A DNA stretch of 64,000 nt, from the NCBI RefSeq assembly GCF_009914755.1, contig NC_060926.1. One strand, 5' to 3'. Below, in pieces: positions 12,697 to 56,903 of the stretch. This stretch comes from the human T2T-CHM13v2.0 reference genome, Homo sapiens. Every line of letters begins with the position of its first letter. The stretch's first letter is position 1. The position numbers were made by a program, and so were the translations under genes. Under the pieces are notes generated by a model that did not search any database, had not been told where the DNA came from, and saw nothing but the letters and a program-made list of their open reading frames with translations.

Positions 12697-12735
12697 CTTC
12701 TGACAGCCTGACCACCACCTTCCCCTCATCTTCCT
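12697..12735 (-). CDS. TNS1: Tensin 1 39-nt microexon, EEDEGKVVVRLSE
   Basis: Long pyrimidine tract ending cttccctcag|AG GAA GAT; donor GAA G|gtaagt; phase 1-1; peptide recalled from the canonical TNS1 protein. Confidence 0.92.
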
Positions 12736-13219: not shown

Positions 13220-13243
13220 CTGGCTGGATCCGTCTTCTGGTAA
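13220..13243 (-). CDS. TNS1: Tensin 1 24-nt microexon, VTRRRIQP
   Basis: Acceptor ttttttccttag|TT ACC AGA; donor CCA G|gtaggt; phase 1-1; peptide recalled from the canonical TNS1 protein. Confidence 0.92.
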
Positions 13244-14795: not shown

Positions 14796-14837
<42 letters not shown>

Positions 14838-14842
14838 ACACA
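14796..14842. repeat. (AC)n microsatellite
   Basis: About 18 perfect AC units plus an interrupted tail. Confidence 0.95.
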
Positions 14843-24061: not shown

Positions 24062-24148
24062 CAGAGAGGGAGGAAGATTGGAGCCGGTGGAGAGGAGGGG
24101 GCGGGAAGCTGCCACTGTGTCCGATGCCCTGCAGCCTGGCGTTGTACG
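24062..24148 (-). CDS. TNS1: Candidate alternative TNS1 cassette exon (87 nt), AYNARLQGIGHSGSFPPPPLHRLQSSSLS
   Basis: Acceptor gggcag|CG TAC AAC; donor TCT G|gtgggt; phase 1-1, stop-free in the TNS1 frame; retains CpGs; preceded by a ~194-nt AG-free zone. Confidence 0.75.
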
Positions 24149-27660: not shown

Positions 27661-27744
27661 TTGAAATCTCCACCTCTAGAGACATCTGAGATCAGTCCAG
27701 CCACAGAATCAGGGACATAAGATAACTCAGTTGGACTCTCCAAC

Positions 27745-27935
27745 TCTGACTCTTATTTCTTTTTCTTGTCTTATTGCACTGGCTAGGACATCCAATACAA
27801 TGTTAGATGCAAGTGGTGATAACAGACATCCTTATTTTGTCCCTGGCTCTAATAGGAACGCTTCCAATGCTCCACAGGAAAGTGTGATGTATGCTATAAA
27901 TTTCTGGTCCCTACCCTTTATCAAATTAGAAAACT
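27745..27935 (-). mobile_element. Old L1 (L1M) ORF2 fragment
   Basis: ttatttctttttcttgtcttattgcactggctaggacatccaatacaatgtt...gtggtgataacagacatcctt is typical antisense L1 text. Confidence 0.75.
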
Positions 27936-30326
27936 GCCCCTACCTTCTCCTCTACAACTTAAGCTGGAATAAGGCACAAGGGTGATTGGATCAAAGTGGA
28001 ATAAACCAGGGACTTGAGACTGAGGTATGGAGGACAGCCAATGGGGAAAAGGCAGACCTGGGGGAGGAAAGCCAGGAGAAACCAGATCAAGTTCATGGCC
28101 ATGAAGAGGTTCTCCCACAGATCTGAGCTTCCTAGGTTACTCATGTCAAAGTGTATGTTCCAGCTTCTTACGGCAGAGATGTAGACAGAGCAGAAAGAAG
28201 TAGTGCTGAAATCTATCTTCCCTGCCTCCCAGACTTTTCCACACATTGATCTTGTCTGTCTGCCTTTATCTACACAGGCACTGCAGATACCCTGAAAGGC
28301 TACTAAGGAAGTTACTCATGCAGGACCTGCTGACATAAATTCTGTCATAATGACAGGGCTTGAACCAAAGAGGCAACTTCATAGACCTGGGAGCCAAATA
28401 TAAGTGTCCCCTCTATACATTTCATCCCTTCTCTTGAGTCACTCCCAGTTGATGGAGGAAATGGCAACAGGGTTAGGGAATGGGAACATTGTGCCAACAG
28501 TATCCTTCCCTATCTATGACTTCATGGCAGCCAAAGCCTGAGAGGCTACAGAATATGGAAGTTGACAGTCAAGCCTTCGAAAGCTGGTAGGAGAGAAAGG
28601 GCTAAAAGGCAGTCCACTACAAGATGGGCATCCTCCCAGGGCCATTAGGGTTATGGCCTCCTCTTGAGCAAGCTCCAGGAGAGCTGCATGGAAGGGTTCT
28701 TGTAGGGGAGGAAATGTATTCTGCTCCCCCAGAGAGAAGGCTCCTGGATCCTGCCCCTCATTAGACTAGCGTGTCACTAATCTTTAGGCCACCACTCCAA
28801 CCTTGCAAAATATTGGGAGAGGAATTAAATTCCCAGGGAATTCAGAAAGCCCCATCCCTCTCACCTCAAAAAAACCAAGAAGAAAAGGATCTCTGCTGAC
28901 AAAGCCAGGGGGGTATCTTTATCTCAGGGGCCCAGATGTGGGAGAAGGCAGAAGTCAAAGCCCATATGGACCACCCATGGAGCGTTTCATCCGAGGTTAA
29001 GAACTGCCCATCCTTTGTTCCGATGCTCAGGTAAAAGGAATTGTTACTGCTAGGCCAGCTCTCTATGGGAGGTGAGGCTGATTGCCAATTTCCATGGTGT
29101 AAATACTCCTGCAATGGCCAATTTCAAGCTATTATACCAATAGTGGAGCTGGGGACTCTGCTCTGCTCTGAAGTATAGGAGCAGGGAGCCTGTGTCCCCA
29201 CACCAGGTCCTGAGCCAGCTGGCCTGCCCCAAGCTGCTTCCCTAAACCCACGGTCCATCTCCAGGGAGGGTGTTTCCTTCCCTCCCTGCAGCTGGCATGG
29301 TGACTCAGCTTCCCCTAAATTTAGGAAAAGGGGTGGAGGACAGAGACAGCTGCCCAGGCTCCTCTCCTCCTCGCTGAGCTCCCACCACCCTGTCAGCTGA
29401 GGGGCTGGCACAAGGTCCACCCAAATCCACAGTCTCTGGTCCACCCCTGTCTGGGCTCCACCTCCAGAATAAAGTCACCCAACAGGTTTTCCTGCCAAGT
29501 TCAGCCACCCTTGTGGAATGGGCATAGGCTTAGACCAGTGGGAAGGGAACCTCGCAGCTGTCTCTCCCAACATGGCCCCAGACATGCTGTCATTTCTTGC
29601 CTTTGTCTCCCCAAAAGCTCTTCTGAGTGTCCCACTTTCCTCTCTCCCAAAAGAGAAGCCCACTCTCTGATAGGAAAAGGAGCTTTGTCTCTCAGCACCT
29701 ACTTCCCATACAGGGCTGGTCCTCAGCAAAGACTAACAGGAAAACTGACTTAGAAGGGGAACCTTGGCCTCCCCGCCCCAGCAGATAGAGCCTAAGGGCT
29801 TGAGGATACCCTCTCGGACTCTTTCATGGCCTCTAGGAGCGGGACCTAAGAGGGAATTTGAGTCTACAAAGGCCTCCCTCCAGCCTTCTCCACGTCTCCC
29901 CCAAGGAACTAAAGTCTGAGGACAGACAGCACGACAGGCAATTGCAGAGTCTCCTCTGTGTCTAGAAAGTCTGTACTCCAACCCCAAAGTCACCACCTCC
30001 TGGAAGCTTTCCCTGACTGCCCTAGGTGGTAAGCTTTGCTTTCCCAGGCTCTGGGATCTTGGTCCCACCTCTGTCACCGTACACATTACTCTCTAATGAA
30101 ATCATCTGTCTGTGTATCTGTCCGCTCACTAGACTGTAAATTTCTTGAGGGCAGGAATTGCTTGACATTGAACTTTGAAACTTGGTGTCTGGCTTGGTGC
30201 CTATCAGACAATGAATGCAGGAAGGGATAACTGGCTAGCATATAGGCTCCTGAGAGCCTCCTCCCACCAGTGAAAGCAACATCTGCTTAGGGGTCATGGC
30301 TGGACCTGCACCTCCCCCCAGCAAGA

Positions 30327-30336
30327 CCAAATAAGG
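30327..30336. promoter_or_regulatory. CArG box (SRF consensus) CCAAATAAGG
   Basis: Exact CC(A/T)6GG match ~37 bp from the giant-exon donor; a second match CCTTAAAAGG lies at 37452-37461. Motif match only. Confidence 0.35.
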
Positions 30337-31057: not shown

Positions 31058-31950
31058 TGAATTCAGTCCCCTTTGCACAGCCTCCCGGCTGCTTCCCCCT
31101 CGGACCGGAGCTGGGGGCAGCTGGGGTTCAGCTTCCGAAAAGGATTGAGAGCGGAACATACCGCTGGGGTCATGGGCATAGTGGGAGGTGGTCACTGGCT
31201 GTGGCCAGGCTGGGTGGGGCCCCTCCCTCTGGTAGCCAGCTAAACCCTCCTGTGCAGAGTAGGAGGGCCGCATGGGGGCCGTGTGGCCAGCATGGGCAGG
31301 CCCCGCCCGGCTGGCAGACTCGTAGGGGTAGCCTCCTCCATTGACCATAGGCTCCATGGGGTAGGACTTGTCCAGACCGTTGGTCAGTGGGGACAGGGCC
31401 TCTGGGTAGCCCCCCTCACTGGTGTTGGTGACCCCGTCCAGAGAAGAGAGTGTGCCCATGCTGCCCGCACTGTGACCATCCTGGTTTGGCAATTCATCGT
31501 CCAGGATGTCTGTCTCCCGCTCAGATGCTAACGCCCCACCATTGACATGAACCTGGGCTGGGACAACGTGGCGTCCAGAGGAGGGCACAGCCGAGCCCCC
31601 TGCTGGGCGGGACCTGAGGTGCTGGGTGTGGTACATGGCGCCTTGCTTCTCTCGCTCTAAGCCAAAGCCACTCAGCAGGCGGTCCAGCTCCCGCTTCTCC
31701 TGGGGACTCAAGGCAGCAGTGGCACTGGAGGCCCCGGGGACAGGCTCGTCGGTCTTGTCGGTCTTGGTGGAGGCTGTGGAGTTGCCCGAGTCGCTGCTCA
31801 CAGAAAGCGTGTGTTCCACGTGGTTGGGGGTGGCCGACAGTGTAGGACGTGTGGCATTAACAGCCCCGGTGCTGCCGTGCAGGGAGTCTTTCTTCTTCAC
31901 CTTAGCATACAGGCTCCCATCTAGTGGCCCCTGCGTGTGTCCCACCACCT
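30373..31950 (-). CDS. TNS1: Tensin 1 giant coding exon (1578 nt), [21 protein letters not shown]...[11 protein letters not shown]
   Basis: Acceptor tcccttgcag|AG GTG GTG; donor GCA G|gtaaga; phase 1-1; lies within the 566-aa ORF; contains Q9 and [16 protein letters not shown]. Confidence 0.97.
31028..31054 (-). repeat. TNS1: Uninterrupted (CAG)9 coding repeat (polyQ)
   Basis: Nine ctg triplets on the plus strand, translated as QQQQQQQQQ. Confidence 0.95.
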
Positions 31951-34289: not shown

Positions 34290-34322
<33 letters not shown>

Positions 34323-34655
34323 CCCCAGGGACTGGATGCCCTCCTCATTTACTGACCTCTCCAGATCCACCCCTCTGCCCCCAGTTTTCCCCAAGGCTTT
34401 GGGACCTCAGCCAACACCAGCCCCAGACAACACAGGACCAAAGTATTGCAGCAGCCCAGGGCCCAGGGCCCAGGGCTGGTCTGAACTGAAAAGGGGTTTT
34501 GGCTAAAATACATTCTGAATCTCCACCAACCTGGCCCTGTGCCTAGACCCCTAAAGGCTGCTAAGATGCAGGACCAGGCACAGCTGCCTCTTCCAACCCC
34601 CTATTATCATCGTAAAGGGGTCCTCTCCCTGTAGGATGAGGGAGGCTGACCTTCA

Positions 34656-35025
<370 letters not shown>

Positions 35026-38000
35026 CTAGGGGGCAAAGCACTGAAGACAGGAGCCTCTGATGCACTCATAGCTCTGGGGTGGTTCTCTTGAGGATGGGGC
35101 CCCTTGGACAAGTTGGCCGAAATCTGAAGAGCTGGCTTTCCTTCTCACTGTCCCTAGAAAGCTGCAGGCCCCCTCCTGAGCCAGGGCACCCCCTCTGCCA
35201 CCTACACTGTGAGGTGCCAGAATTTCCCTCCTGGGCCAGTGATCCCCTCCATCCTTTGTGCCTCCTCATCCCCCACGTTCATGCTCATGTGGTCTGAGAA
35301 GTGGGGAGCTGCAAAGCAAAGGCTGGTGTGTCCAGTGGCTTCCCCACTTAGACATGTTCCACAGTGAGAGCCATGGGGGCAAATTCAAATCAGAAAGCAC
35401 ATAGGCCCCTGCAGCATCTCAGTCATGACTAACAGAAAAACTATGAAGGCATCCCCCAGGCAGGAGAGAGAATTGACTACCTGATATCTCAGCCCTTCCT
35501 TGCCCCTGTGGCCAAGCCCCACTCAGCATCGATTTTGAAAATGTCAATGTTAAACTTGTTCTGTCATGTAATCTATCCCCAAGTGGGCTCCTGTTTGCAG
35601 CAACAACATCAGGAACAATCATAGCCAAGCCACTAAGGCATAGTAAGAAAATCGAACAGATGCAAATTGTTTAATTAACTCCTGTTCGCTAACTACAAAT
35701 GGAAATGTCTCTTGGCCCCAGATTGCACCCTCCAGGCCACTCAGCACCTTTGCTGAGTTGTCCTCTTCCTATCCAAGGGAGGTTTTGAGAATACCCAGGC
35801 TGATCCCAGGCCTGTCCAGCCCTGATGAGGACTCTGCTGAAACCCCAGCATAGCAGCAGGATCTGTGGAGCACGTGCCCCTCCTCCTCCCACCAGAGACA
35901 AGACAAAAGTCCCCCAGCCCCCACTCCGGCACACACACTCTCATCATTCCCTTCTCACCATCCACCACGGCCACATTAGAGCTTTTTACCGGGACCACAA
36001 GAAGCCGGAACACAATGTTGGTTTCAATCCATCAAGGCAGGAAGGGCAAAAGAGAGACGGGGGCAGAGAGGACAGGAGTGAAATAAGGTAGAGGAGGATA
36101 AGAGAGGGACTTAAGGGAGGCTGGGGAGGTGGCTTTACAGCTCTTAATCTGAGGGGTCTCCAGAGCCATCCTCTTGAAGTCCCAGCAGCCACAAAGGGAG
36201 TGATCAGTTCAGGGGAATGCATCTCAGATGAGAGGAGGCTGGACATCCAGAACAATGGGGCATGGGCTAGAGGGAGGGGTCTGCATGTTTGGGGGCTGTG
36301 GGCATTGTCACGGGTGACAATGGAGTGGGATAAACTGAAGCAGAAACACAAGCTGCAGGCAGCCCCAAGTGGAGAGCTCCAGGCCCCAAGCCCAGCCAGC
36401 CTGGACATCTGCTCTTGTGGGCTGAAAGGTCCAGTGTCCTGCCCATTCCTCTTGGTGGTTGCAAAACCCAAAATCTCTCCATGGCCCCACTGTCTTTGTC
36501 TGAGGATGTCTCCCTGCTCTTCTCAGCAGCTGCAGAGAGTTCCAGACTCCACCCTCGATGCTGAGCTTGATTGCACCACGGGGCCTTTATTCCAGGGCAG
36601 CCATAATCCAGATGCACGAGTCATGCTTTTGGAAAGCTCTGAGGAAAATCCCCAGCTGACTAGGGTGTGCACCCACTCCCCGGGGCTCCCTCCCAGAAAA
36701 GGGTGCAGAGGTGTGTGCGGCACTAGCCATGCAGCTCAGGCTGGGATGCAGGAAAGTAAGGATGCAGCCATCTCACACACTTAAAAAAGAACGAAGGAAA
36801 CAAATAGGGGATGTTAAAGTCACACGGTTTCAGGGCAGCTGTTTTCTAATTCTGATGTTCACAAGAACCTCCTCTGGAGATTGTTAAAAATCTAGATTTC
36901 AGGACCCTATCCCCAGGGACTTCCACTCAGAGGCCTGGGGTGGGGCCAGGAATCTGCATTTTTGCCAGCTCTCCAGGGGTCCTGGCACACACATGGCTGG
37001 AGGACATCTAGAGAAACCCGCCCCAGCTGATCAGCACTTTGGGCTCTGAGATCAAGAAACCCCACTTCTCTTCCTCATGAAAAGTAGGGAGGTTTTGCTT
37101 ATTTAGATGTTAGGACAGACGGCCCAACCATGAAGAATAAAAGGTGCCAGCCATATTGACTGCAAGAAAGGAGTCACCTTCATTGGCAATGACTCAGTGA
37201 AGACAGACCCTTCCCTGTCGGACCAGCAGGTAGGTTTTGAATAGCGAATGAGTTACTAAGGTTTTCAGGATGAGTCCCTTCATGATAAAAAGTCCTTTGG
37301 GTCCAAGTCCAGCAAATAACAATTCATTAAAATGCATTACCCAGAGCCGTGATGACCACCCAACGTGGGGGAAAATCAGTGCCATGACAATAGGAAGAAG
37401 CACCGTGCCTACCCCAGACATAGGCTGTTTGGAGGCAGACTGGGCAAAACTCCTTAAAAGGAGGAGTGGGGAATCCAAGGCCACGTGCATCTGAGAGGTA
37501 GGTGAGCTTTGATGAGAAGTGAAGCTTGGCCAAGAGCCTGCCCAGAGAGCAAGTTCTGGTTGCATTTTCCCTTATCCACACACTCTGCCCCAGCCATGGG
37601 AAGAGGCAGGAGAGGCTATGGCTGGGGCAGGCACCAGGACAGGAGGGAGGGCTGGGTCCAGGAAGGCCACAAGGGATGGCTCTGGAGAGGAGACAGGGAA
37701 GTGCGCCTTCCCACCCCACCTCGGCAGCCAGACACACCAGCACTCAGAAACATAGCTGCCATCTTAATGGCCATATCAGCTTGCATTGACCACTTACCCA
37801 CTCAGAGCCCGGCCTGCAGGCCTGTCAGGTGAGGATTCGAGAGTGTGTGTGCAGCTTTGCTGAGTGATAGCACTCAGGAGCTAAGGCTCTTAAGCTAGAC
37901 CTGGCATATCCAAGCACTCTCTACTTTTCCTCTCTCCATCCCCTGCTTTACATTTCAACAGCTCTCATCACCCACAGGGTAAAGCCCAACCCCCACGCTG

Positions 38001-41000
38001 GAAATGTCAGACCTTTTCCCAACAGGCCTCTGCCTACCTTCTGAAGCCTCACTTCCTTGTCCTCCATACCCAGAACACCCTCCACTCTACTCCTACTCAA
38101 CTCTTCATATGCTCTTTCCCCTCTGTGCATGCTGTTCCTTCCGTGCAATGCCCTTCCTCATCCTGCCCGTGAAACTCCCAACCTCCTGGGCAAATGCTTT
38201 CAGACTCAGTTCAAACTTCCCTGGGAAATTTCCCTTAATCTAACTTCTTCCCTACTGTCCTCCAGACTCAGGTAAACCTCTACGGTGCTCCTGTTGTCCC
38301 TTGTAGACATCTCTACTGTGACAACAGTCACCCACAGAATGGTCATTACTGATGTCCATGTCTGTCTTCCCACTTTGCTGAGAGCTTGTTGAGGAAGAGC
38401 CTTTATCTCTCTCTCTCTCTCTCTCTCTCCCTCTCCCTAGGGCCGGTTCCCAGACGGTGCCATCCACAATGTGGTCTGTGTGAATGATGCCTCTTGAAGT
38501 TCAATATGTAACCTGCATGGCTGTACAGAATGGCCCTAGAGAAGAGTGCTTGTTCCATAAATGCTTCTTGCCTTACACCGAGTAGCCGAGAAAGCTTTAT
38601 GTAGTTCTGTCAGCCATTGAGATACTCTTCTTTCACCACCACCCAGTGAAAAATCAGGGGTTCTAGGTGGACCCCGAGTTTCTCCCCAAAGGTGAGGGAA
38701 GAGAGTCAGTGCAGCCGAAACATGAAGACATGTATTCCTCATATTCTGCAGCAAAGGCTGAGCATGGTGGAGGTCCCTGAGCCAGAGCCTACCCCATGGC
38801 ATCCCCTACAGACCTCTCCAGCTACACTCCAGCCCAGTGGACATTAACTTCCCTAGACCCAGGACCCCTGGGAGATCTGGTGAAATAAGGGAGTTGATGA
38901 ACACCCCAAAAACCATCTGTGGATCCCAAGATACAACATATGCATCGAAAAGTTAGGGTGCTGTCTCTGGGGATCCTCTCTGTCACCCATGACTTGCATG
39001 GAGAATGCCAGGCTCCATCCAGGGGAAATGGGGCGGCACACTGAGTGGAAGCTTTGCGGCTGCGGGAGCCTAAGAAGTGGCTCAGGGTGCTCCACTGGGT
39101 TTTAACCTGCCAGGGGAAGTGATGTGAGGAAGGCATGAGGGTACAGAGGGCCCCGTGGAGAACCCCAGCATGTGGCTCCAGGAAGACCCCGACCTCCTGA
39201 AACATCCTGGCATTGGTGGCAGGGACTTCCTGGGGCTCAGTCTGTGACAGTCTTGGCCTCCACCCATGCCAGCTTCCCTTCCCACAGACAGCTGGGGATT
39301 GAGGCAGCCCTTTGTTCCCCACAGCCTGCAGCGAGCTCTGGAACTTTCTCAAGGGGAATGGGCTTCTGCAGGGGCTCTGAAGATCTGCAGAATTAGAGGT
39401 TGAAGAGAAATCCCGGAACCTCTGAAGGAGAGCCACACAGAGGAGACACAGCCTCTGAAACAGCAAAGAGGGCAGGTGCCAAGTGCAGCCCAGGAGACTT
39501 AGGTGCACGTTGGGAACACGTAAAAAGATTTTTTGGTAAAAAAAATTACCAAAGATTTTTTGGTAAAAATAGCTCCAGAGCCCACAACAAGCACAGGGCC
39601 TTGGAACCCTGTGGGCAGGGACAGACCAGTCCATGAGTGACAAATAGACACCTGTTTTTCTTTCCATTTAATAGCACACACCTTCAGAAAGTGAACAGGA
39701 GAGAACAAGATTTTTCTCAGGGCTGTGCTGTCAGTCTTGTCGCAGGTGGCTTTGTCCTCTAAGCAAGTGACCTCACCAGTGTCACCTACAAGCTTGCCTC
39801 TGGACCCAGGGAGGGTGGACCAGCTGGGCTTCTCCTGGCCACCTTCCCATTCTGCTGAGTCCAAGAAAAAAAGAGGGAGGCTCAAGGTCCAAGACCCACA
39901 CGGAGCCCAAATCTCAATGTCAGCCTGTGGCCTTGAAGATGGAGAAAGTCAGCTTCAGAATGAAATAAAAAATAGAGCCCCTCCCACCCACGGCTGCCTC
40001 TGCTGCTCCAGGCCCTCTGGGGGACAGCAGAACTGGGATCTCCAGGGCCCGGGAGGTTGGCTCAGCCAAGAGAGCTTTTTAAAAGCCCTGGGGCTTTTAG
40101 AGCTGAAGGGCCTTAGGGGAGTAGTTAATCCCCCTGCCCACCCCTCACTTTATAGGCTGACAATGAAGCTCAGCAGGCTCAGGACCACCCAAGGTCACCC
40201 GGCAAGGAAGTACAAAACCAACTCCTGGCTCCCTATTCAGTGCTCTTGTCCCTAATGCTGCTTCAAGGTGAAGATGGCTGGGGCTGGAGGCATTGGAAGG
40301 TGGACTCTCCAACTATGTCTGTGGACCCAGAACCACAGGACAACATAATATATGGTGCTTCTGTCAAGCGATGATGATAAATGTGTCCCCGGACCCTCCT
40401 TAGGAAGGACCCGTGGCAATTGTCCCAGGTATCTTCTTACTTGAATTCATACCATGCCCTCCATAAAAAGGGAGTAGGAGCAGAAAACCTGATCGTGACC
40501 TTGACTTCAGTCCCGAGAGACCAGGGGCCTGGAGGGCAAGTGATCTGCCCTGCCCTGGATGGCCCACGCCTGCAGGGCAAATGTGAATTCTCAGACCCAG
40601 CCTCCTGACTCCGGCCTGGCCTGTGTTCCCCCCAGCCTGAAGCTATAACCCGAGCCTGGCACTCCCACCCCTACCCTCAGCCTATACGGGCAGCAGATAT
40701 CACAGGCACACTCAGGATGGTAAAAATAGCTCCAGAGCCCACAACAAGCTGAAGTCCTTCTCTGCCAGGCCAGGGTGCCAGCCTGGGCACTCAGAGATCC
40801 CTGGCTAGAGGAGAGTCAAGCTGCCAAAATCTCTGCCAAAGTCAGGAGAAAGCCGTGAATGGGAGCCCACAGGAGGCCGGTGGGGAATGGTGAGCACTGG
40901 AGGTGCCCCAAAGCTCAGGCCAAAGATGCAGGGAGGGGGCGTCCTGAATAACATCTCACCAGAGCTATCCATGCATCCACCTCATTCCCTCTGCCAACCC

Positions 41001-41340
41001 CATTCGCGCACAAGACGAACCGTTACCCCCGCAAGACTTAGGACAACTCAGACACACGGCCCCCCCACCAACCCAGATACCCTCGCCCTGAAAGCTATGG
41101 CTCTTACGTGTCCCAGAAGCAAGTCCAGGAAGGGGACCACCAGGCCCGTCACATCCACATCAGACAGCAGCACAGCGGGCCACAGCCCCACTCAGCCACA
41201 AGCCCTTCCAAGGTGGGGTCGTGACAGAGCCTGCCCCTCCACACCCTCCCAGCACAGAAGCACGAGCACCCCAGCCCAGATCCAGCAGAAAGCCACACAA
41301 GAACACTCACAGGCAAAACAACTGCCCAGCAGACACTTAC

Positions 41341-41477
41341 CCTCTGGAGGGAGGGAGGGAGAGGGAGGAAGCGGAGGGAAGCCCGCTCTGATTTGATCCT
41401 GGTGCCCCAAGTTCCCAATAATTCCTACATGGCTGCAGCTCCAAGTGCTGTCTGTGTCCTACTCAAGCTCCCTCCGA
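41341..41477 (-). other. TNS1: Candidate non-canonical TNS1 exon (internal first exon or cryptic cassette); 5' boundary uncertain
   Basis: Donor CCAGAGG|gtaagtgt at 41341; possible acceptor cctcccacccctgacag at 41478; contains GCC ATG TAG. Confidence 0.5.
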
Positions 41478-41518
41478 CTGTCAGGGGTGGGAGGAGCCAG
41501 TGCCGCCTGCCTGCCCAT

Positions 41519-41520
<2 letters not shown>

Positions 41521-41550
<30 letters not shown>
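41521..41550. repeat. (AC)15 microsatellite
   Basis: Direct inspection. Confidence 0.95.
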
Positions 41551-41552
<2 letters not shown>

Positions 41553-41779
41553 CACTCCCTCCCTCCCTCCACTCTCCTGCACGCTCTCTCCCCAGCTCAG
41601 CTTGCTCTGCCTCACTCTGGCTTGTAGGAAGCCAGTGGGATAAAACTGTCTGTAATTTCAGCCAGCTGGGTCCCCAGGGCTTCACTTATCATCCTGCAGC
41701 TATGCCGTTCTTGAATGACATCACGGTGGCTTCCCAAGCCCTTCACTCCCACCGGCCGGGAGTCAGGAAAAGTGGCCAG

Positions 41780-41975
41780 CCCAGTCCAACTCCAGCCCCA
41801 ACCCCAGCCCAGCCCCAGCCCCAGCCCCAGCCCCTGCTCAACTCTCACCCAGCACAGTCTAGCCCAGCCTGGTCCCAGCACAGCCCAGCCCAGCCCCACC
41901 GGGTCCCAGTCCAGCCCAGCCCAGTCCCAGTGTAGCCCAGCCCAGCCCCAGTCCCAAACCCATGGCAGCCCCAGT
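41780..41975. repeat. (CCCAG)n/(CCCCAG)n repeat; (GGGCT)n on the transcribed sense strand
   Basis: More than 20 degenerate cagcc/cccag units. Confidence 0.9.
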
Positions 41976-42093
41976 GCCCTGAAGAGAAGCAGGGAGAGAA
42001 TCTGGGAGCAAAGTGAAACTGAGCCCCAAGCGGAAAGGCAGGGATGCAAGGGCCAGAGAGGGAGGGGAGAGAGGTCCTATGAGGGTATTGAGA

Positions 42094-42099
42094 TTTATT
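42094..42099 (-). terminator. Candidate intronic polyadenylation signal AATAAA
   Basis: Plus-strand tttatt ~350 nt downstream of the alternative stop codon; the downstream element is CU-rich rather than clearly GU-rich. Confidence 0.45.
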
Positions 42100-42446
42100 T
42101 CCCCAAATTTTCCACATTTTTTTTCCATTCTCAGCAAATGGAAGGCAGAACAGATGACAACAATTTTCCAGCTGCTGAACAATAAGGTGGAAATCTTTTT
42201 TTCCCTCTCTCTCCCCCTTTCCCCTCCACAGGGCAGAGTCCAGGAGCCAGAACACTTCCTTGGCTTGGAAAAGGAAAAAGAAAAAACCCCACAGGGTCCT
42301 GCACTTCCCAGAGGTGAACACAGGACCTGAATAGAAGGACTGGGGTGTCACCCAGGCAGGGCTCCAGGAGGGGACAGGAGCCCCAACATGAAGTTCTCAG
42401 TGCAAAGCTTTGGATTCTGGCTTGGCAACTTGACATTTTGGAGGGC

Positions 42447-42550
42447 CTAACTTTGGGAAGGCCAGTGTGTGTCTGGCCAGGTATATTGATCCTCCAGGCC
42501 ACCTGAGATGCTTCCAATTGACTGGCTATTGGTATTCTGTTTGTTCCCAT
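42447..42550 (-). CDS. TNS1: Alternative TNS1 exon: terminal form DGNKQNTNSQSIGSISGGLEDQYTWPDTHWPSQS*, or 48/99-nt in-frame cassette
   Basis: Acceptor atttccacag|AT GGG AAC in phase 1 after exon 63747-63863; phase-1 donors at 42503 (CAG|gtggcc) and 42452 (AAA|gttagg); TAG at 42447-42449; minus-strand AATAAA at 42094-42099. Confidence 0.7.
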
Positions 42551-44424
42551 CTGTGGAAATCATGAATAGCAGAGTATCACTTTTCAGAGTTCGCAATGCC
42601 TCACCCTCGTTCCCAACCACCCAGATCCGAGAGCCATGCAGCTGAAAGGCAGGTGAACGGCCCTCAAGTTCCCACCATTATCCTGATGTGCCCTGGAAAG
42701 TGCCAGGAGTCCCTAACTGATAATAAGACACCAAATCCCCACTCTTATTAACATGTTGTTTGTGACTTATTTGCATATCAATTGAATCTCCCAACCCAAT
42801 TCTCAGAGTGGACAGGAGGTGATCTGGGCTTTGCGGCCAGGCCAGTGGGAGCTTCAGCGACTGGTGTCTCCATGCAGAGGGCCCCAGTTAGTTTGCAACC
42901 CCAAAATGCTTCCACAGACACAGGCTTGCCCTGAGCTATGGCTACCCCATCCTCGTGCCCAGACCTTCCCAGCTAAGTTTGGTACAGCGAGATTGGGAGG
43001 GAAAGCCCTGCCAGGCACAGCCCAACTACTCCCTGTGTTTCCCCTCAGACACCTGAGCCCTCAGCCCCTCGCCATTTTCAGCACCCCTCTCTGGCTGCTG
43101 TTCTTTGAGGGTAAAGAAAGAAAATAAGGGGAAGAACAAAAATGGTACCCAGTGCCCTGTACCCTGGCCACTGACCTATCTTCACTGATGAGATAAAATG
43201 GGACAGCTCGGTGTCACAGACTTCAAAGAGACCACTAAAAATAAGGAGACCAGGGGAGGGGAAGCAGAGGGGTTCTATGCCTCAGGCTCCACCTGGGGAA
43301 GACCACAGTTTGGACAAACTATTGCAATTATCCTCCTACCTCCATAGAGTCTTCTAGAACTAACCAACAAACCTCGGGCTCTTGAAAGGTTTAAGGCACC
43401 CCAGTTCACCCACTTGTCCCCACCCCAACCAACCCACAACAGTATTAGCAGAGATTTTGTTTGCACGCAACCTTCATGTTTATTTGTCCATCTGAATATC
43501 ATCTACATTATTATTTTGTAAGTTATAAAAATAAACTTCATTTAACTTAAACTAGTTCTAAGCACAATATCCATGATGTCCCAGATTGAATGTGCAAAAT
43601 ACATACCTTTTTTTCCAATACACATCAAAATAAATATACCTAATATCAGTTCATATATAATTAGCAGTCTGACCATACTTTGGAACCTGAACCTTACTTT
43701 GGAAAACACTACCACACAATAGTTCCTGCCAGTGGCAACCCCATCTGATGGTTCTCCACTATCATCCAGGGGGACTAGCTATACTAGAAAGCCCCCAGGG
43801 AGTTTTATAAGAACCCCGATCCCCTGGCTCCACACAGAGGCAAAACTGTCTGGAATGGGGCCTGGGACTTTGAATTTGAAAATGCTCCCCAGCTGCAAAT
43901 AATAAGAGAGTCAGGTTTGGCAAAAACTGTTCCTAGCTGTACTCAAATTCTTCCAGGTACAGGGATTTTACTGTCTTCCTCCAAAAGCCCAGCTCATCTT
44001 TAGGGGGCCGTAACAGTGGATTTTAGCTCAACATAGGAAAAAACACCCTGGAGCCCTCTTTTCCACTAACTGGCCTTACAGTGCCCGATGGAGTGGGTCA
44101 GAACAAGCCAATCGCCCCCTCGCTAGAGCCCTTCAGATACTGAATGAGACGTGCCTGCCCTCCTGAATCTCCCCTTTGACAGGCAACCCCTCTCCCTGCA
44201 AGTCCCTGAGCCTGACATACTTTCTGGTTGCTTCTCTGCACTTGCTTCCAGTCGTTCTTTATCACTTTGAAGCAAGGGACCCACAAACAGCCCATGTGGG
44301 CGCTCTGACTTAAAAGAGGCACAACAGGCCTGTCACCTCCCATTTTCTGGAAACCATGCTTTTGTTAATGCAGCCTAAGATTATGCCTGGCCCTTCTCAT
44401 TCTCATCACTTCAGCATCTGCCAG

Positions 44425-44640
44425 GTTAAGAACATGGACTTGGAAGTCAGACATTGGTTTGAATACAGATACTACCAACTACTAGCTTAAGGCAACCCTG
44501 AGCCAATTACTTGGCTGAGCTTCAGTTTCCTTATCTGTAAAATGGGTATACTAGTCATTGTATCTCAGTAAGTAGTGCAAAGACTGATATAACACATGAA
44601 AAGCTCTCAGCACAGTGTACAGAACACAGAAGTGCTCCAA
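44425..44640 (+). mobile_element. MIR SINE
   Basis: ggttaagaacatggacttggaagtcagac...ttcagtttccttatctgtaaaatggg...aagctctcagcacagtg. Confidence 0.8.
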
Positions 44641-46159
44641 AGGACAGAACACGAGTAGTGCAGCGTGGGCTTCCCCGTCTCCCTTCCCTAGCCCTGTGCC
44701 CCCTGAGCAGTACCTCTGTGACCCTATCTCACCAGCCCATATGTATCACACCCAGTGCTTAAGCTTCAGGACATACAATTTGGCCCACCCGATCTCTGCT
44801 CAAAAATCATGGCCTGGAATGGCCAGCATAGAGAAGAGGCTTCCAAAATGGTGCAGACTACAAGGATGTGATGCCATTCCATTAACAAATACTGAGCCTA
44901 TCCCAACACTGATTACTGCCAATGGTGTGCCTGAAAATGCATTGCCACTTCCACCTGCAGAGATGAATTCAGCCTCAAGGACCACAAGGAGAGAAGGACG
45001 GGCACAACCTCAGCTGCATGCATAAATAGGAAAGGACTTCCTGGGGGCTTGGGCAGAGGGCAGGGCATGGCAAATCTGGTTCAAAAAAGAATACACTTCG
45101 TCTTACCATGTTTCTATTTGGGGGAAAAAAAAAGACAATTTTTTTTCTTAAAACAAACTACAGGAAATAGCAGGAGAAAAGTCTTTCCCAATAGTGGGTG
45201 GGTTAAACTAAGCTTGAAAGATGATGGTATTACTCTGTCTTCAGAGGCAGCCCAGTATCCCCTGTACCCCCTGAGGTGGCCCTGAGCAGGGCAGTTTCAT
45301 AAAACACAAGTTCTAGAGGTAGGAGGGTGGGTCTGGATACCTTCTGGAAACTTCTCAGGTGCCAAGGATTCTTCAAGACCCCAGATTTGCCACATGGCAC
45401 CGCACTGTGGGCAGTCAGCCCAGGCAATTTCCTAGAATCCCCGCATGGTCAAGCCAGAGGATGTTGTGAGTTCATTGGGCCCAACCCACCCACCCGATTT
45501 CATCTGTCCAAGTCAGCGAAGGGAAGAGTTTCCCACTGTCACACATGGTCAGTGCTGGAGTGAGATTGCCACCAGGGCCCCTGGCTCTCAGAGGGAGTCC
45601 TCCCCACTGCCAGATCTCAGTCAGATGCCATGAGATGGGTGCTCAGAGACTGTGAACTCTCATTACAGAAGAACCACAAATGTCTGCAGGTCTAGCTGTG
45701 CGAGGAAAGTAGGATATTGGTGGACAATTCTACAATGAAGACACACTTCCCAACTGTAGGTCAAGCAAATGCCCCCATTCCCTCCAGACCATCCTTCCAG
45801 CCAGCAGACCTACAGCTGGAGCCAGGTGGCCAGGGCCCCTCACCCACACTGAGGGGTCTCTCCAGGGAGGAAGGGGGCCCAGCCTCCCTGGTCACCCCCT
45901 CCAAGGCTTAGTCCCTTCCTGTCAAGTTCTTTCTTTTCATTCGTAGGTATAAAGCAACATTCCTGGCCTGGCTCTTTGTTCTTCCTCGTAAAGAACAGAA
46001 TGGCTGAGTGCTTTGGTTTCCAAGCAGCCGGGTCCCAGAACAGAAGGAGGAAACAGAACAGAGTGTCTCCAGTGAAAGACTACTTCACACCCTGCAGGTG
46101 GGACAGGTGAGATCACAAAGATGAGAGGTTAGAGGAAAGAGGAGCACCCCCAGGTAGCC

Positions 46160-46372: not shown

Positions 46373-47784
46373 AGCTAGACTGAGGGATGAAGGAGCCTGG
46401 GGTGTAATAGACCGATCTCCGAACTAAGACTCAAGAGTCTTGGGTTTCAACCCCATCTGGGCCACTACTTCACTGCTTAAACTTGGGCAAGTGATTTCCT
46501 TTTCCTGGGACTCAGTTTCCAACGTGGTAAAATGAGTGGGAGGAGATAAGCTTTGAACTCTAAAACTTCTGGTTCTATGGACAGCCATCAAGGAAGAGAA
46601 AGACATGGCTGGAGGGAGCAGTCAGGACAGGAGAAGGAAGGGGTCTCCCAAGATAGGCATGGTGTCAAGGTTCAAACGTCTGGGGATAGAGGGAGGAAGG
46701 GCCCGCTGCCTGGGGTGGGCACAGCAGCTGCATATGTGATGAAAACATGTCCTTAGACCTCCCCAGGACCTCCTCCCTGCCTCCCAGCCCAGTGGACAGG
46801 GAAGACAGGGCCATCGGAGCAGGACAAGCTTCAGGCACCCCTGGCAGGGCCTCAGCCTTCCAGGGTCTTCACACTTCCCATCCCAGGAAGGCAGTGGGCA
46901 GGGCCAGGCCCAGGAGCATGTTCCCTAAGAACAGGACAGGAGCCCTAGTGCCAGAGGATTACTCAGGAAGGGAATTGTCAACTCCCAGGCAGATGTTTGT
47001 GTTGGATGAGGGTCGGGACATATCCACTCACCGCGCTTCTGCTTCTCCCCACCCTTACTGCTCCCAGGACGTGGACACCATGTCAGTGGCAGTCCTCACT
47101 GAATGGGGAGAGGGTATATGGGGCTTTGGGAGCAAGGGCGAAGGAGAGGGTAGAATGGAATGAGGCAGGCATGTTATTGAGTATGTGCCTGCACGTTAAT
47201 GGAAGTTCCCTTGCTTGGTTCCACAACTGCCTTTCAAAGTGGATATTGTTATGCCATCTTCCTGATAAAGAAACTAAGGCTCAGGGGTTGGAGCTTGCTC
47301 AGGATTACATTGCCAGTCTGACTCTGACATTCATGCTCTTTCTGCTTCCCAGAAAGGAAGGAGAAACAAGAAAGGAGATGGAGGAGGCAAAGGTTTAGAT
47401 CTTAGAAGATCCAACAAGAAAAAAGGAGTGGAGAGTGACAATAAAGTCACAATGCTGGTTTATAACAAACTCCAGCAGGCAAGTGAGCACTGTCCCCATC
47501 AAACTGGTTCCCTGGGAATTTTATGCATTTATCCTCACAATGCTACCAGAGCTCAAAGCATTTCTGGAAACAAGTAGAACACTGCCTCAGGGCTGGTTTA
47601 TAATTCACACGAATGAAACCATCTCTGCAAGTGAGGTCAATCACTATTCCTGATCCCAAACAGGCCCATTCTCTCAGCATCCACATATAAGTTGGGTTAT
47701 CAAACTGGCTGGGCAGTTTTATAATTACAGCTCCCAATACTGTACGCAGTGGGGCAGAGTTGGGGTACGCAGTGGGGCAGAGAT

Positions 47785-48065
47785 CCATGTGGTTCCATGC
47801 AGAGAGGTGGGTGTGTGCAGAGGAGCCCATGTGGTTCCATGCATGAGAGGTGGCTATGACTACAGGGGTCCATGTGCTTCCATGCATGAGAGGTGGCTAT
47901 GACTAGAGGGATCCATGTGGTTCCATGCATGAGAGGTGGTTGTGAGCAGAGGGGTCCATGTGGTTCCATGTGTGAGAGGTGACTATGAGTCAAGGGGTCC
48001 CTGTGGCTCCATGCATGAGAGGTGGCTATGAGTACAGGAGTCCATGTGGTTACATGCATGAGTAG
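47785..48065. repeat. Minisatellite, ~43-bp unit, ~6.5 copies
   Basis: Unit ccatgtggttccatgcatgagaggtggctatgactacaggggt starting at 47785, 47827, 47870, 47913, 47956, 47999, 48042. Confidence 0.95.
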
Positions 48066-50059
48066 GTGCAGAGGTGGGTGGAGGATCTGGGTGGGTATCT
48101 GCTTCCTTCCCCAAATAAGCCCATCTAGGGCTAGGCTGAAAGTGACTCACTTATGCAGAGGCCACCAAACCATGAAGCACAGGCCTGCATGGCAGACAGA
48201 AGCCAGGGCACCACCCTTGGGCCTTTCTGCCTTTGCATCACATGAGGAGCGCCCATCTGCTTCTCGAAGGTTCTCAAGCAATGTGCAGACAGAGAGAGGA
48301 AGGCAGGGAAGAAGGAGAGAGCTGAGAAGCTTTGAGCTTTCATATCAAAATCTGATCTCACTGCCCCTGGAGAAGGAGAAGAACACACATCAAAGAACAC
48401 TTTGCTGCTAACAATTTTTTTAAGCAATCAAAGGCATAAGTCCCAGATAAGCAGCCAGGGCATCGACTGGCTGTAAAGATGTAAAGATTGGGCAGTCTGA
48501 AGCTCCCCACATCCATCAACAGCTCTGTTGCTGCTTCCCAGGGCACAGGGAGATAAATGGCCCAGGGATTGAACAACTGAGGTCCAGTATTCTGGAGCCA
48601 GGAGTGTCTGAGGCAGGACACCCCAGGTCCCTGAGGGATAGTCTTGTGAGTGTAAATAATGCTTGAGCAAAGAAAGAGGGGCAGGAGAAAAGGGACTTTG
48701 GGGTGAGACTCCTGAGTCCCCTTTGCACAAGAATGAGCTAGGACCTTGTCAGAACCCTCTAGAAGTTGCCTTGTTTTCCCATGTCCACAAGCCATGGTCA
48801 CTCATCCTACCTAGACAGATGCGTGGAGTGGAAAGGTTCTTCTCCTCAACTTTCAGAAAATCTAGAAAATCTAGTCCTGGCACCTGTTCCTGTTACTCAG
48901 ATCCCCCAAAGGCAAGAGGGTTCTCCTGAATGTCAGACCTCCATCCTTCCAGCAGCAGCTAAAACTCACCTCTCCAACTCTGCCCCTAGATCTCTAACCA
49001 GCCACGGTGTAACAAACAGACCTAAAGAAAATGCTGCCTGGCTGCAGCAGCAGACTAGGAGCCAAAGAGCCAGAATTCTAAGGGGTGATTTTGGACAGGC
49101 CTCAGTTTACTCCACTGTGCAATGGCAGAGGGCAAGTATAGGTGATCCCTAAAGTCCTGTTTGGATCTGGATCCTCAAGGATACAACTCAGAGAAGATGC
49201 TCTACCAGGCACTGTTTGGATCCCAGAGCCCCTGGACTTGGCAGGCCTGTATCTCCTCTCCTGCTTGGACCTGCCCGGGTGGCTTCAGGCTCCAAACTTG
49301 TCTGAGGCTATTTCTGCAGCAGCCATGGAGTCCCTGAGGCTAGGACAGAAAAGGGGACTTACAGGAAGTCTGTAAACACACACCAGGCTGCAGAGGTTCC
49401 CAGGGCCATGCAGGGCAATCAAGAGGCTGATTTATTTTCATCAGTGAAATGCTGAAACTTAATCCCTGGAGCAAGCTGACCCGGCAGACAGCGGCAGGCA
49501 GCTCCTCAACCAGAGCAGAATTAGCTAGTCCGCAGCCTCTCAGGCCTCTCCACTGGGGCTGGCAGAGGGAGGGGACAGGGAGAAGGCTGGGGCTGGCCAG
49601 TTCAGCCACTGTGGCTCCAGATCCCTTGGGCTGGCCTCTCCCCTCCCCCATCACTGGCCTGCAAGGGTCTCCAGGACACAGGCACAGCATTGGGCAGAGC
49701 TGGACAGGCAGGCTTCCCACTTTAACTCAGTTCCTATTCCCTAGGTTCTCAAACCCCAACTGCATGGGGCAGCAGGGCAGGGCTCCTCAGGACTCCTACC
49801 CTTGTCAGAAATGGTGAGAAATGTTATGCTGAGAAATGGTGGGTGTCAGAATCCAAGCTCTACCCCTACCTGGCTGTGTAAGCATCAGTAAGTTACTTAA
49901 CCTCTCTGTGCTTGTTTCTTCATCTGTGAAATAGGAACAAGAGAACTCAGGTCACAGGAGAGTCATGAGGAGTACAAGAAATTATGGGTACCTAACAGTA
50001 TCTCACATATTGGGGGGTGCATATTAAAGGAGGTGGGCGGATAGATTCTCCTCCTCATC

Positions 50060-56872: not shown

Positions 56873-56903
<31 letters not shown>
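56873..56903. repeat. (AC)15 microsatellite
   Basis: Direct inspection. Confidence 0.95.

What the first reader, a model, noticed from the sequence alone, without database searches (positions are those of the whole stretch)
41341..42550. Possible gene-splitting module: terminator and restart within 1.2 kb
Seen, in transcription order: alternative exon with stop, AATAAA, G-rich repeat, (UG)15, start-stop uORF, strong donor. All lie in the 31.8-kb intron that separates the folded N-terminal module from the IDR-SH2-PTB half. Inference: one compact element may let cells express the two halves of tensin 1 separately; the C-terminal product would resemble tensin-4/CTEN, which naturally lacks the N-terminal domains. 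This integrated model is a hypothesis.
Basis: inference. Interest (0 to 1): 0.75.

Follow-up and report, generated by a model that had tools for sequence, protein, structure and literature searches.

The report
Internal TNS1 promoter; terminator unproven
This stretch of a long tensin-1 intron holds an already annotated internal start exon inside an unusually G-rich repeat patch, while the proposed upstream "terminator" is built of motifs that occur by chance all along the intron.

Summary
All six listed motifs are present at the stated places on the minus (TNS1 sense) strand. They carry very different weight.

Solid:
- Exon 41341-41482 is listed in the hub's RefSeq table. It has no AG acceptor before it and a near-consensus donor AGG|GTAAGT, so it is an alternative first exon.
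- It sits in the most sense-strand G-rich 1 kb of the 64-kb window (G 0.392 against a median of 0.278).

At chance level:
- The acceptor at 42550 has a weaker pyrimidine tract than all 10 annotated acceptors checked, and 198 of 2,397 intron AGs are at least as good.
- AATAAA occurs 14 times in the intron, and all 14 have such an acceptor 50-600 nt upstream.
- The hexamer at 42099 lacks UGUA and a GU-rich downstream element.

No tool here shows RNA 3' or 5' ends, so coupling of termination and restart could not be tested.

Separate expression of tensin halves is already in print: human eTNS1, which starts 16 kb further downstream in the next intron, mouse Tns1 cDNAs for each half, and a short TNS3 isoform.

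Verdict: a known kind of internal promoter. The "gene-splitting module" remains a hypothesis of low probability.

The parts
41341..41482 (-). Alternative first exon of TNS1 (142 nt, non-coding apart from a start-stop). It is the transcription start of an internal promoter.
   Evidence: Listed among 'exons of other transcripts' in the hub's RefSeq table. The upstream flank ...ccacccct has no AG. The donor is AGG|gtaagt.
41335..41343 (-). 5' splice site AGG|GTAAGT, matching 8 of 9 consensus positions
   Evidence: It is one of 3 GGTAAGT, and one of 6 sites matching at 8 or more of 9 positions, in the 31.8-kb intron.
41425..41430 (-). Start-stop mini upstream ORF (ATG TAG), context GCAGCCATGT
   Evidence: There are 13 such sites in the intron, so its presence here is only weakly unusual.
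41521..41550 (-). 15-copy GT/TG dinucleotide repeat, 39-68 nt upstream of the annotated start. It is outside the short transcript and intronic in the long one.
   Evidence: TRF: period 2, 15.0 copies, 100% matches.
41550..41570 (-). (GGGA)4-type G-quadruplex motif on the sense strand
   Evidence: TRF row 41555-41570. G4 regex cluster 41567-41550.
41776..41979 (-). Imperfect (GGGCT)n minisatellite. It contains the largest sense-strand G4-motif cluster of the window.
   Evidence: TRF 41776-41962, period 5, 32 copies, 67% matches. G4 clusters at 41979-41874 (106 nt) and 41834-41796.
41001..42000 (-). Sense-strand G-rich, G-skewed, CpG-poor island around the start site
   Evidence: G fraction 0.392, the highest of all 1-kb windows (median 0.278). 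Plus-strand GC skew is -0.17 to -0.32. CpG observed/expected is 0.15 around the start.
42094..42099 (-). AATAAA hexamer, 612 nt upstream of the annotated start. Use as a poly(A) signal is not shown.
   Evidence: The context has 0 UGUA in the 100 nt upstream and a C/U-rich downstream stretch with 2 GT/TG dinucleotides.
42447..42550 (-). Hypothetical alternative terminal exon start. It would add 34 residues and then TAG (42449-42447) if spliced from exon 63863-63747.
   Evidence: Frame worked out. The acceptor is no better than 198 other intron AGs. I could not see whether any of the '5 more' annotated exons is this one.
31634..31636 (-). First ATG in the TNS1 frame for a transcript that joins 41341 to 31950 (context GGCGCCATGT). 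It lies outside the finding's span.
   Evidence: The frame is open for the remaining 421 codons of the exon. It is preceded by upstream ATGs at 41430, 31920, 31908 and 31857.

Best explanation
The lower half of the span (about 42000-41341) is an internal, TATA-less, CpG-poor alternative promoter of TNS1 with its non-coding first exon. It is embedded in a sense-strand G-rich patch of simple repeats.

Proposed mechanism:
- Transcripts start at about 41482 and use the strong donor at 41341. They skip every exon of the PTP-like and C2 N-terminal module and join the disordered-region exon at 31950, or the small alternative exons just before it.
- The first in-frame AUG is then at 31636. My estimate is about residue 456 of the 1,735-residue form, giving a product of about 1,280 residues that is disordered region plus SH2 plus PTB.
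- The start-stop and three short upstream ORFs probably keep translation low.

Shown: the exon anatomy, the reading frame, the G-richness, and the fact that the exon is annotated.
Inferred: promoter activity, the splice partner, the protein product, and the dampening by upstream ORFs.

The upper half of the span (acceptor 42550, stop, AATAAA 42099) is most likely ordinary intron sequence whose motifs occur by chance, not a dedicated terminator.
For: - The hub's RefSeq table lists exon 41341-41482.
- There is no AG before it, and its donor matches 8 of 9 consensus positions.
- The window holds at least five further annotated exons whose upstream flank shows no polypyrimidine-AG acceptor, read here as first exons (33421/33412/33051, 32864, 30333, 12009/12010). 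Internal starts are therefore a habit of this locus.
- The frame opens at 31636 after four upstream ATGs.
- This is the G-richest 1 kb of the window and holds 4 of 19 sense G4 clusters.
- Both halves of the span are single-copy in the genome, so it is not a recent mobile element.
- Background statistics for the terminator half: 14 AATAAA in the intron; 14 of 14 with an equal-or-better acceptor 50-600 nt upstream; 198 of 2,397 AGs at least as good; the candidate's pyrimidine fraction is 0.65 against 0.71-0.94 for the 10 annotated acceptors checked; no UGUA and no GU-rich downstream element.
- Mouse Tns1 and Tns3 have well-supported alternative 5' exons beyond intron 5 (PMC1431701, Table 4).
Against: - I could not see which RefSeq record carries the exon (curated or model), nor any CAGE, RNA-seq or chromatin data. 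The strength and tissue of the promoter are unknown.
- No core-promoter motif was found. There is no TATA, no GC box and no Inr at the start; there is one GATA site at -209 and one CACCC at -8.
- The hub's table hides '5 more' alternative exons. If the table's listing runs in ascending order they lie at or above 41341, and one could be the proposed terminal exon.
- There is no 5'-splice-site-like motif (7 or more of 9 positions) between 42604 and 41340, where about 2.9 are expected. This mildly fits an unprotected poly(A) site.
- The G-rich array begins about 115 nt after the hexamer. That is a position where pause elements have been described (PMC8972054 passages).
Confidence: 0.62

Rival explanations
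1. One reading: a compact intragenic terminator-plus-promoter cassette. Full-length transcription is ended at a skipped terminal exon (42550 to about 42075), giving a PTP-C2-only protein of about 385 residues. The G-rich array pauses polymerase II and shields the promoter 0.6 kb downstream from read-through. The two halves are then made as separate proteins. It would work like a short tandem intergenic region (STIR) placed inside a gene.
For: - The order hexamer, then G-rich sense-strand array, then same-strand start, all within 0.62 kb, is real.
- G-rich motifs on the transcribed strand are enriched between a cleavage site and a promoter up to 2 kb downstream. The C2/factor B pair uses a G-rich pause element (PMC8972054 passages).
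- There is a 1.26-kb gap free of 5'-splice-site-like motifs around the hexamer.
- Mouse cDNAs exist for a catalytic-only Tns1 form and for an SH2/PTB-only form (PMC1431701, Tables 6 and 7, and supplement rows).
- Mouse Tns1 shows increased intronic polyadenylation after Srsf10 knock-down; the intron was not stated in the passage I saw (PMC8989518).
Against: - The acceptor, the stop and the hexamer are all at background frequency, and the poly(A) context is weak.
- There is no exact G4NG4 or G5AG5 motif between the hexamer and the start: 0 of the window's 8 G4NG4 hits fall there.
- The strong donor 750 nt downstream could suppress the site in the long pre-mRNA through U1 telescripting (recalled knowledge, not tested here).
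- There were 0 TNS1 hits in the held supplements of one immune-cell intronic-polyadenylation atlas, although TNS1 may simply not be expressed in those cells.
- The homologous 27-kb TNS3 intron shows no look-alike cassette.
Confidence: 0.1
2. The exon is a low-level by-product. The G-rich patch would be an intronic enhancer or open-chromatin site whose sporadic transcripts are captured by a chance strong donor and spliced into TNS1, with no meaningful protein output.
For: - Four upstream ATGs, including a well-placed start-stop, precede the first in-frame AUG, with a leader of 456 nt.
- No core-promoter motifs and no CpG island were found.
- RefSeq lists 44 transcripts for the gene, many of them likely models (hub table).
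- No paper describing this start was found: 0 papers for TNS1 plus 'intragenic promoter', and among 14 papers for TNS1 plus 'alternative promoter' plus 'isoform' (11 listed, 4 opened in passages) the passages read did not describe it.
Against: - The exon is annotated with defined ends.
- The donor is among the best 6 in 31.8 kb.
- Other internal TNS1 and TNS3 starts give real proteins: eTNS1 in PMC12753235 and the 61-kDa Tns3 form in PMC9596163.
Confidence: 0.2
3. The acceptor at 42550 is used without polyadenylation. It would serve as the start of a stop-containing 'poison' exon or of a retained-intron transcript that lowers TNS1 output through mRNA decay, independently of the promoter.
For: An in-frame stop lies 34 codons after the acceptor. 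The acceptor-to-donor span 42550-41341 is bounded by legal splice signals.
Against: A 1,210-nt internal exon would be unusually long. The acceptor is weaker than every annotated acceptor checked. There is no supporting data.
Confidence: 0.05

Closest known systems
eTNS1, the erythroid short tensin-1 (Ghosh et al. 2025, PMC12753235; abstract, passages and supplement passages read)
   Same: It uses an internal alternative first exon of human TNS1. Its product lacks the N-terminal actin-binding and PTP-C2 part and keeps SH2-PTB.
   Different: - eTNS1 starts in the next intron. I map its exon 1E to ATG 24942 plus 9 codons and the donor at 24915, 16.4 kb downstream of this exon.
- Its first exon is coding and derived from a LINE element, and it is reported as primate-specific, with GATA1 and TAL1 occupancy.
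- The exon here is non-coding and single-copy, and it would keep about 420 more residues of the disordered region.
Short tandem intergenic regions (STIRs) and the C2/factor B MAZ pause element (Nissani and Ulitsky 2022, PMC8972054; passages read)
   Same: The layout is the same: poly(A) signal, G-rich sense-strand sequence, and a same-strand promoter, all within 2 kb.
   Different: - Those regions lie between two genes with proven cleavage sites. Here everything lies inside one intron and the cleavage site is unproven.
- No G5AG5 or G4NG4 motif is present.
L1 'gene-breaking' (Wheelan et al. 2005, seen only as cited in PMC4859970)
   Same: One intronic element supplies both a premature end for the upstream half of a gene and a new start for the downstream half.
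   Different: Gene-breaking needs an antisense L1 with its antisense promoter and poly(A) sites. This stretch is single-copy in the genome searches.
Positional initiation-termination axis (PITA; PMC10802295; abstract and passages read) and the Dcamkl1 example (PMC1431701 passages)
   Same: Upstream starts pair with upstream ends and downstream starts with downstream ends, giving isoforms with different domains.
   Different: This is a statistical, gene-wide tendency, not a compact element. TNS1 is not named in the text or in the 2 held supplementary files.
Short C-terminal Tns3 isoform (61 kDa; PMC9596163 passages) and TNS4/CTEN
   Same: They are tensins that lack the PTP-C2 module.
   Different: They come from another gene or paralogue. 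The homologous TNS3 intron (about 27.2 kb) shows no similar repeat-plus-donor cassette. I could not place the TNS3 short start.

Membership tests
Alternative first exon / internal promoter | The exon's 5' end is not a splice acceptor | tested here: met
   The flank ...ctcccacccct|GACAG has no AG.
Alternative first exon / internal promoter | A functional 5' splice site at the exon's 3' end | tested here: met
   AGG|GTAAGT matches 8 of 9 positions. It is one of 6 such sites in 31.8 kb.
Alternative first exon / internal promoter | Capped 5' ends (CAGE or 5'-RACE) and promoter chromatin at the site | not testable with these tools
   Only the hub's RefSeq exon row is available. No expression or chromatin data can be reached.
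Alternative first exon / internal promoter | Downstream in-frame start codon giving a truncated protein | tested here: met
   The ATG at 31636 opens the TNS1 frame, but after 4 upstream ATGs.
Intronic polyadenylation with a skipped terminal exon | 3' splice site stronger than the intron background | tested here: not met
   Pyrimidine fraction is 0.65, below all 10 annotated acceptors checked (0.71-0.94). 198 of 2,397 AGs are as good or better (a crude measure, not MaxEnt).
Intronic polyadenylation with a skipped terminal exon | AAUAAA with UGUA upstream and a GU/U-rich element downstream | tested here: not met
   The hexamer is present, with 0 UGUA in the 100 nt upstream, T fraction 0.30 and 2 GT/TG dinucleotides downstream. 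It is average or worse among the intron's 14 hexamers.
Intronic polyadenylation with a skipped terminal exon | Mapped poly(A) tails / 3'-seq cluster | not testable with these tools
   No 3'-end data are available. There were 0 TNS1 hits in the 4 held supplementary files of PMC5928244.
STIR-like terminator-promoter unit (C2/factor B type) | G-rich motifs on the transcribed strand between cleavage site and promoter | tested here: met
   Sense G4 clusters at 41979-41874, 41834-41796 and 41567-41550. It is the G-richest kilobase of the window.
STIR-like terminator-promoter unit (C2/factor B type) | MAZ-type element (G5AG5 or G4NG4) | tested here: not met
   0 hits between 42094 and 41483. Only G4N2G4 occurs there, 4 times.
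STIR-like terminator-promoter unit (C2/factor B type) | A used cleavage site up to 2 kb upstream of a used promoter | tested here: inconclusive
   The hexamer is 612 nt upstream of the annotated start. Its use is unknown.
L1 gene-breaking | Antisense L1 5' end supplying the promoter and poly(A) sites | tested here: not met
   Both halves of the span match only themselves in the 3.1-Gb assembly. The tool skips very common words, so an old, diverged repeat cannot be excluded.
eTNS1 (TNS1-208) start | Exon 1E lies in intron 17, with an initiator Met and 9 unique residues | tested here: not met
   This exon lies one intron upstream, and its only ATG is followed at once by TAG. The 9-codon exon end maps to 24942-24915.

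The most novel reading that the evidence does not exclude
A single 1.2-kb intragenic cassette splits tensin-1 into two independently made proteins. It would consist of a weak terminal exon, a switch-region-like (GGGCT)n R-loop and pause array, and a promoter. Polymerases arriving from upstream would be stopped by the G-rich array, which would at the same time keep the internal promoter free of transcriptional interference. This would be an intragenic counterpart of the short tandem intergenic regions found between closely spaced genes.
Probability: 0.08. Interest if true: 0.6.

Novelty: already known. Interest (0 to 1): 0.22.

Why it matters
Tensin-1 links integrins to actin through its N-terminal half and binds phosphotyrosine partners such as DLC1 through its C-terminal half. 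Isoforms carrying only one half could act as dominant modifiers of adhesion signalling, as eTNS1 does in erythroblast enucleation.

A defined internal promoter in the intron before the disordered-region exon adds one more such isoform to test. However, it is already annotated, and the class is well known.

Only if termination and restart were shown to be coupled in this 1.2 kb would it become a useful model for intragenic insulation of promoters.

Tried and rejected
- Earlier findings of this scan were not open to the session.
- Rfam: 0 matches at E up to 1 in 38000-46000.
- Hidden gene: the ATG-started ORFs of 139-169 aa on both strands gave 0 Pfam families for the 4 of 7 that I scanned. I read them as chance frames in repeat-rich, GC-rich DNA.
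- Mobile-element origin: each half of the span matches only itself in the assembly.
- Exon 24062-24148 as eTNS1 exon 1E: rejected, because it has no ATG. The 24942-24915 end fits instead.
- TNS3 layout: I fetched 27.5 kb. It has 0 GGTAAGT, 3 sense G4 clusters and 7 AATAAA. One AATAAA, at chr7:47546418, is followed by two small G4 motifs, but there is no repeat array, no GT/TG repeat beside them and no strong donor nearby. Without annotation this says little.
- Enrichment of AATAAA upstream of internal starts: 2 of 4 start clusters have one within 1.2 kb, against a 33% background. This is not enriched.
- Literature:
  - TNS1 plus 'intronic polyadenylation': 2 papers, one relevant and on mouse.
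  - TNS1 plus 'intragenic promoter': 0 papers.
  - A five-term search was too loose to be useful; none of its 20 listed papers held TNS1.
  - 'Tensin' plus 'N-terminally truncated': 11 papers, seen as a listing only, none on this exon by title.
- Supplements:
  - PMC8989518 could not be read, so the intron of the mouse Tns1 event is unknown.
  - PMC10802295 gave 0 hits for TNS1 or TNS3.

Full report
**What was checked**

The finding lies on the minus strand, which is the sense strand of TNS1. It is inside the intron between exon 63863-63747 and the 1,578-nt exon 31950-30373. That intron is 31,796 nt long.

A PTEN_C2 exon of the gene lies upstream of the window, at chr2:218,369,885-218,370,016, which is about window 67885-68016. 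Tensin-type PTB exons lie downstream of the window. Neither the 525-residue product of the large exon nor the 38-residue exon before the intron matches any Pfam family.

**The observation**

Reading the strand, running Tandem Repeats Finder and working out the frame confirm every item:
- An acceptor-like cag|ATG with the first base at 42550.
- In the phase left by the upstream exon, 34 added residues and then TAG at 42449-42447.
- AATAAA at 42099-42094.
- An imperfect (GGGCT)n array at 41776-41962.
- A perfect 15-copy GT/TG dinucleotide repeat at 41521-41550.
- ATG-TAG at 41430-41425.
- The donor AGG|GTAAGT after 41341.

**Which parts exceed chance**

The donor is rare. There are 3 GGTAAGT in the intron, and 6 sites match 8 or more of the 9 consensus positions.

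The G-rich patch is exceptional:
- The 1-kb window 42000 to 41001 has the highest sense-strand G fraction of the whole 64 kb, 0.392 against a median of 0.278.
- That kilobase holds 56 G-runs against a median of 22.
- Four of the window's 19 sense-strand G-quadruplex (G4) motif clusters lie between 41979 and 41060.

The other items are ordinary:
- AATAAA occurs 14 times on the sense strand of the intron. A third of all window positions have one within 1.2 kb upstream.
- The acceptor's pyrimidine fraction is 0.65, lower than at all 10 annotated acceptors I checked (0.71-0.94). By this crude measure 198 of 2,397 AGs in the intron are at least as good.
- All 14 hexamers have at least one such acceptor 50-600 nt upstream. 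A stop soon after any such acceptor is to be expected in intron sequence, so the composite 'exon with stop plus AATAAA' does not distinguish this place.
- The hexamer's context is weak. There is no UGUA in the 100 nt upstream, and the downstream stretch is C/U-rich rather than GU-rich. The hexamers at 43484 and 33947 look better.
- ATG-stop occurs 13 times in the intron.

**What is really there**

Exon 41341-41482 is listed in the hub's RefSeq table. Its upstream flank has no AG, so it is a first exon and not a cassette.

The same test shows further internal first exons in the window, at 33421/33412/33051, 32864, 30333 and 12009/12010. TNS1 therefore has a series of internal starts.

Around 41482 there is no CpG island (observed/expected 0.15), no TATA, no GC box and no Inr at the start. 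There is one GATA site at -209 and one CACCC at -8, which I do not over-read.

Joined to the large exon, the transcript has a 456-nt leader with the start-stop and three short upstream ORFs. The first ATG in the TNS1 frame comes at 31636.

I estimated the product size using the residue numbers given for eTNS1 and the canonical protein (PMC12753235 passages) and the exon lengths in the window. On that basis the large exon covers about residues 352-877, and 31636 is about residue 456. The product would be about 1,280 residues. This is an estimate, not a read-out.

The stretch is single-copy in the assembly. It has no Rfam match and no Pfam-bearing ORF.

**Relation to what is in print**

- *eTNS1.* Ghosh et al. 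2025 describe a short erythroid tensin-1 from 'exon 1E' in intron 17, with an initiator Met and 9 unique residues, inside a LINE element and reported as primate-specific (abstract and passages). In the window, only ATG 24942 followed by 9 codons and the donor at 24915 fits that description and runs in frame into exon 19072. This is 16.4 kb downstream of the present exon and in the next intron. The present start is therefore a different one.
- *Mouse cDNAs.* Forrest et al. 2006 list mouse Tns1 and Tns3 among loci with well-supported mutually exclusive 5' exons beyond intron 5. They list a Tns1 cDNA with only the catalytic-like domain (AK053112) and one with only SH2 and PTB (AK004758) (Tables 4, 6 and 7; supplement rows). 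I could not see where these clones break.
- *Tns3.* A 61-kDa C-terminal Tns3 isoform is detected in mouse oligodendroglia (PMC9596163 passages).
- *Intronic polyadenylation.* Mouse Tns1 is named among genes with increased intronic polyadenylation after Srsf10 knock-down (PMC8989518, one passage). The supplement that might name the intron could not be read.
- *Another isoform promoter.* An isoform-specific TNS1 promoter (ENST00000446903) is linked to outcome in Ewing sarcoma (PMC7814737 passages). I could not place it in the window.
- *This exon.* I found no paper on the 41482 start. TNS1 plus 'alternative promoter' plus 'isoform' gave 14 papers, of which 11 were listed and 4 opened in passages. 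TNS1 plus 'intragenic promoter' gave 0.

**The module hypothesis**

The layout of hexamer, then G-rich sense-strand array, then same-strand start within 0.62 kb is that of short tandem intergenic regions. In those regions G-rich motifs on the transcribed strand are enriched, and in the C2/factor B pair a G-rich MAZ element aids termination (PMC8972054 passages). The hypothesis is therefore mechanistically reasonable.

In its favour:
- There is a 1.26-kb gap without 5'-splice-site-like motifs around the hexamer, where about 2.9 are expected.
- The array begins about 115 nt after the hexamer.

Against it:
- The acceptor, the stop and the hexamer are all at chance level, and the poly(A) context is weak.
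- No G4NG4 or G5AG5 motif lies between the hexamer and the start.
- One intronic-polyadenylation atlas has 0 TNS1 entries in its held files, though these are immune cells, where TNS1 may be silent.
- From recalled knowledge of U1 telescripting, the strong donor 750 nt downstream might suppress the site.

The homologous TNS3 intron is also long, at about 27.2 kb. It shows no comparable repeat array with a strong donor. Without annotation this is weak evidence.

**Verdict**

The lower half of the span is an annotated internal first exon and promoter of TNS1 in a remarkable G-rich repeat patch. This is a known kind of feature in a gene family where such isoforms are documented.

The upper half is most likely ordinary intron. 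I give the integrated 'gene-splitting module' about 0.1.

Noticed in passing
window 24915-24942 (minus strand), inside annotated exon 24915-30333: ATG 24942 (context GGCATGG), 9 codons and the donor at 24915 run in frame into exon 19072. This fits the published eTNS1 'exon 1E' (9 unique residues, intron 17).
   Followed up: partly
window 33947 (AATAAA), 34290-34323 (17-copy GT/TG repeat), starts at 33421/33412/33051/32864: A second hexamer-then-start arrangement occurs in the same intron. This AATAAA has a better context (2 UGUA upstream, T fraction 0.45 downstream, a TG run just upstream) and lies 0.5-1.1 kb upstream of a cluster of annotated first exons. Two of the four internal start clusters have such a hexamer, against a 33% background.
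   Followed up: partly
window 14796-14842, 15787-15827, 34290-34323, 41521-41550, 56873-56903: All five long dinucleotide repeats (TRF score 60 or more) read AC on the plus strand, which is GU on the TNS1 pre-mRNA. None has the opposite orientation.
   Followed up: no
window 47778-48068: A 43-nt unit repeated 6.6 times (also scored as 129 nt repeated 2.3 times) is the strongest tandem repeat of the window. It lies about 115 nt from the RefSeq 'enhancer' 48182-48241.
   Followed up: no
G000 chr7:47531478-47558663 (L008-L010); chr12:53023092-53023190 (L004): TNS3 has an intron of about 27.2 kb at the same position as the 31.8-kb TNS1 intron. In TNS2 the matching exon sits in a 560-residue open frame, so the intron seems short or absent there.
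   Followed up: partly
window 42604-41340 (minus strand): A 1.26-kb stretch has no 5'-splice-site-like motif (7 or more of 9 positions), against an intron-wide density of 2.3 per kb.
   Followed up: no
window 13220-13243 and 12697-12735: These two small alternative exons (24 and 39 nt, together 21 residues) match the '21 amino acids (1000-1020)' said to be missing from eTNS1. The selected RefSeq transcript also omits them.
   Followed up: partly
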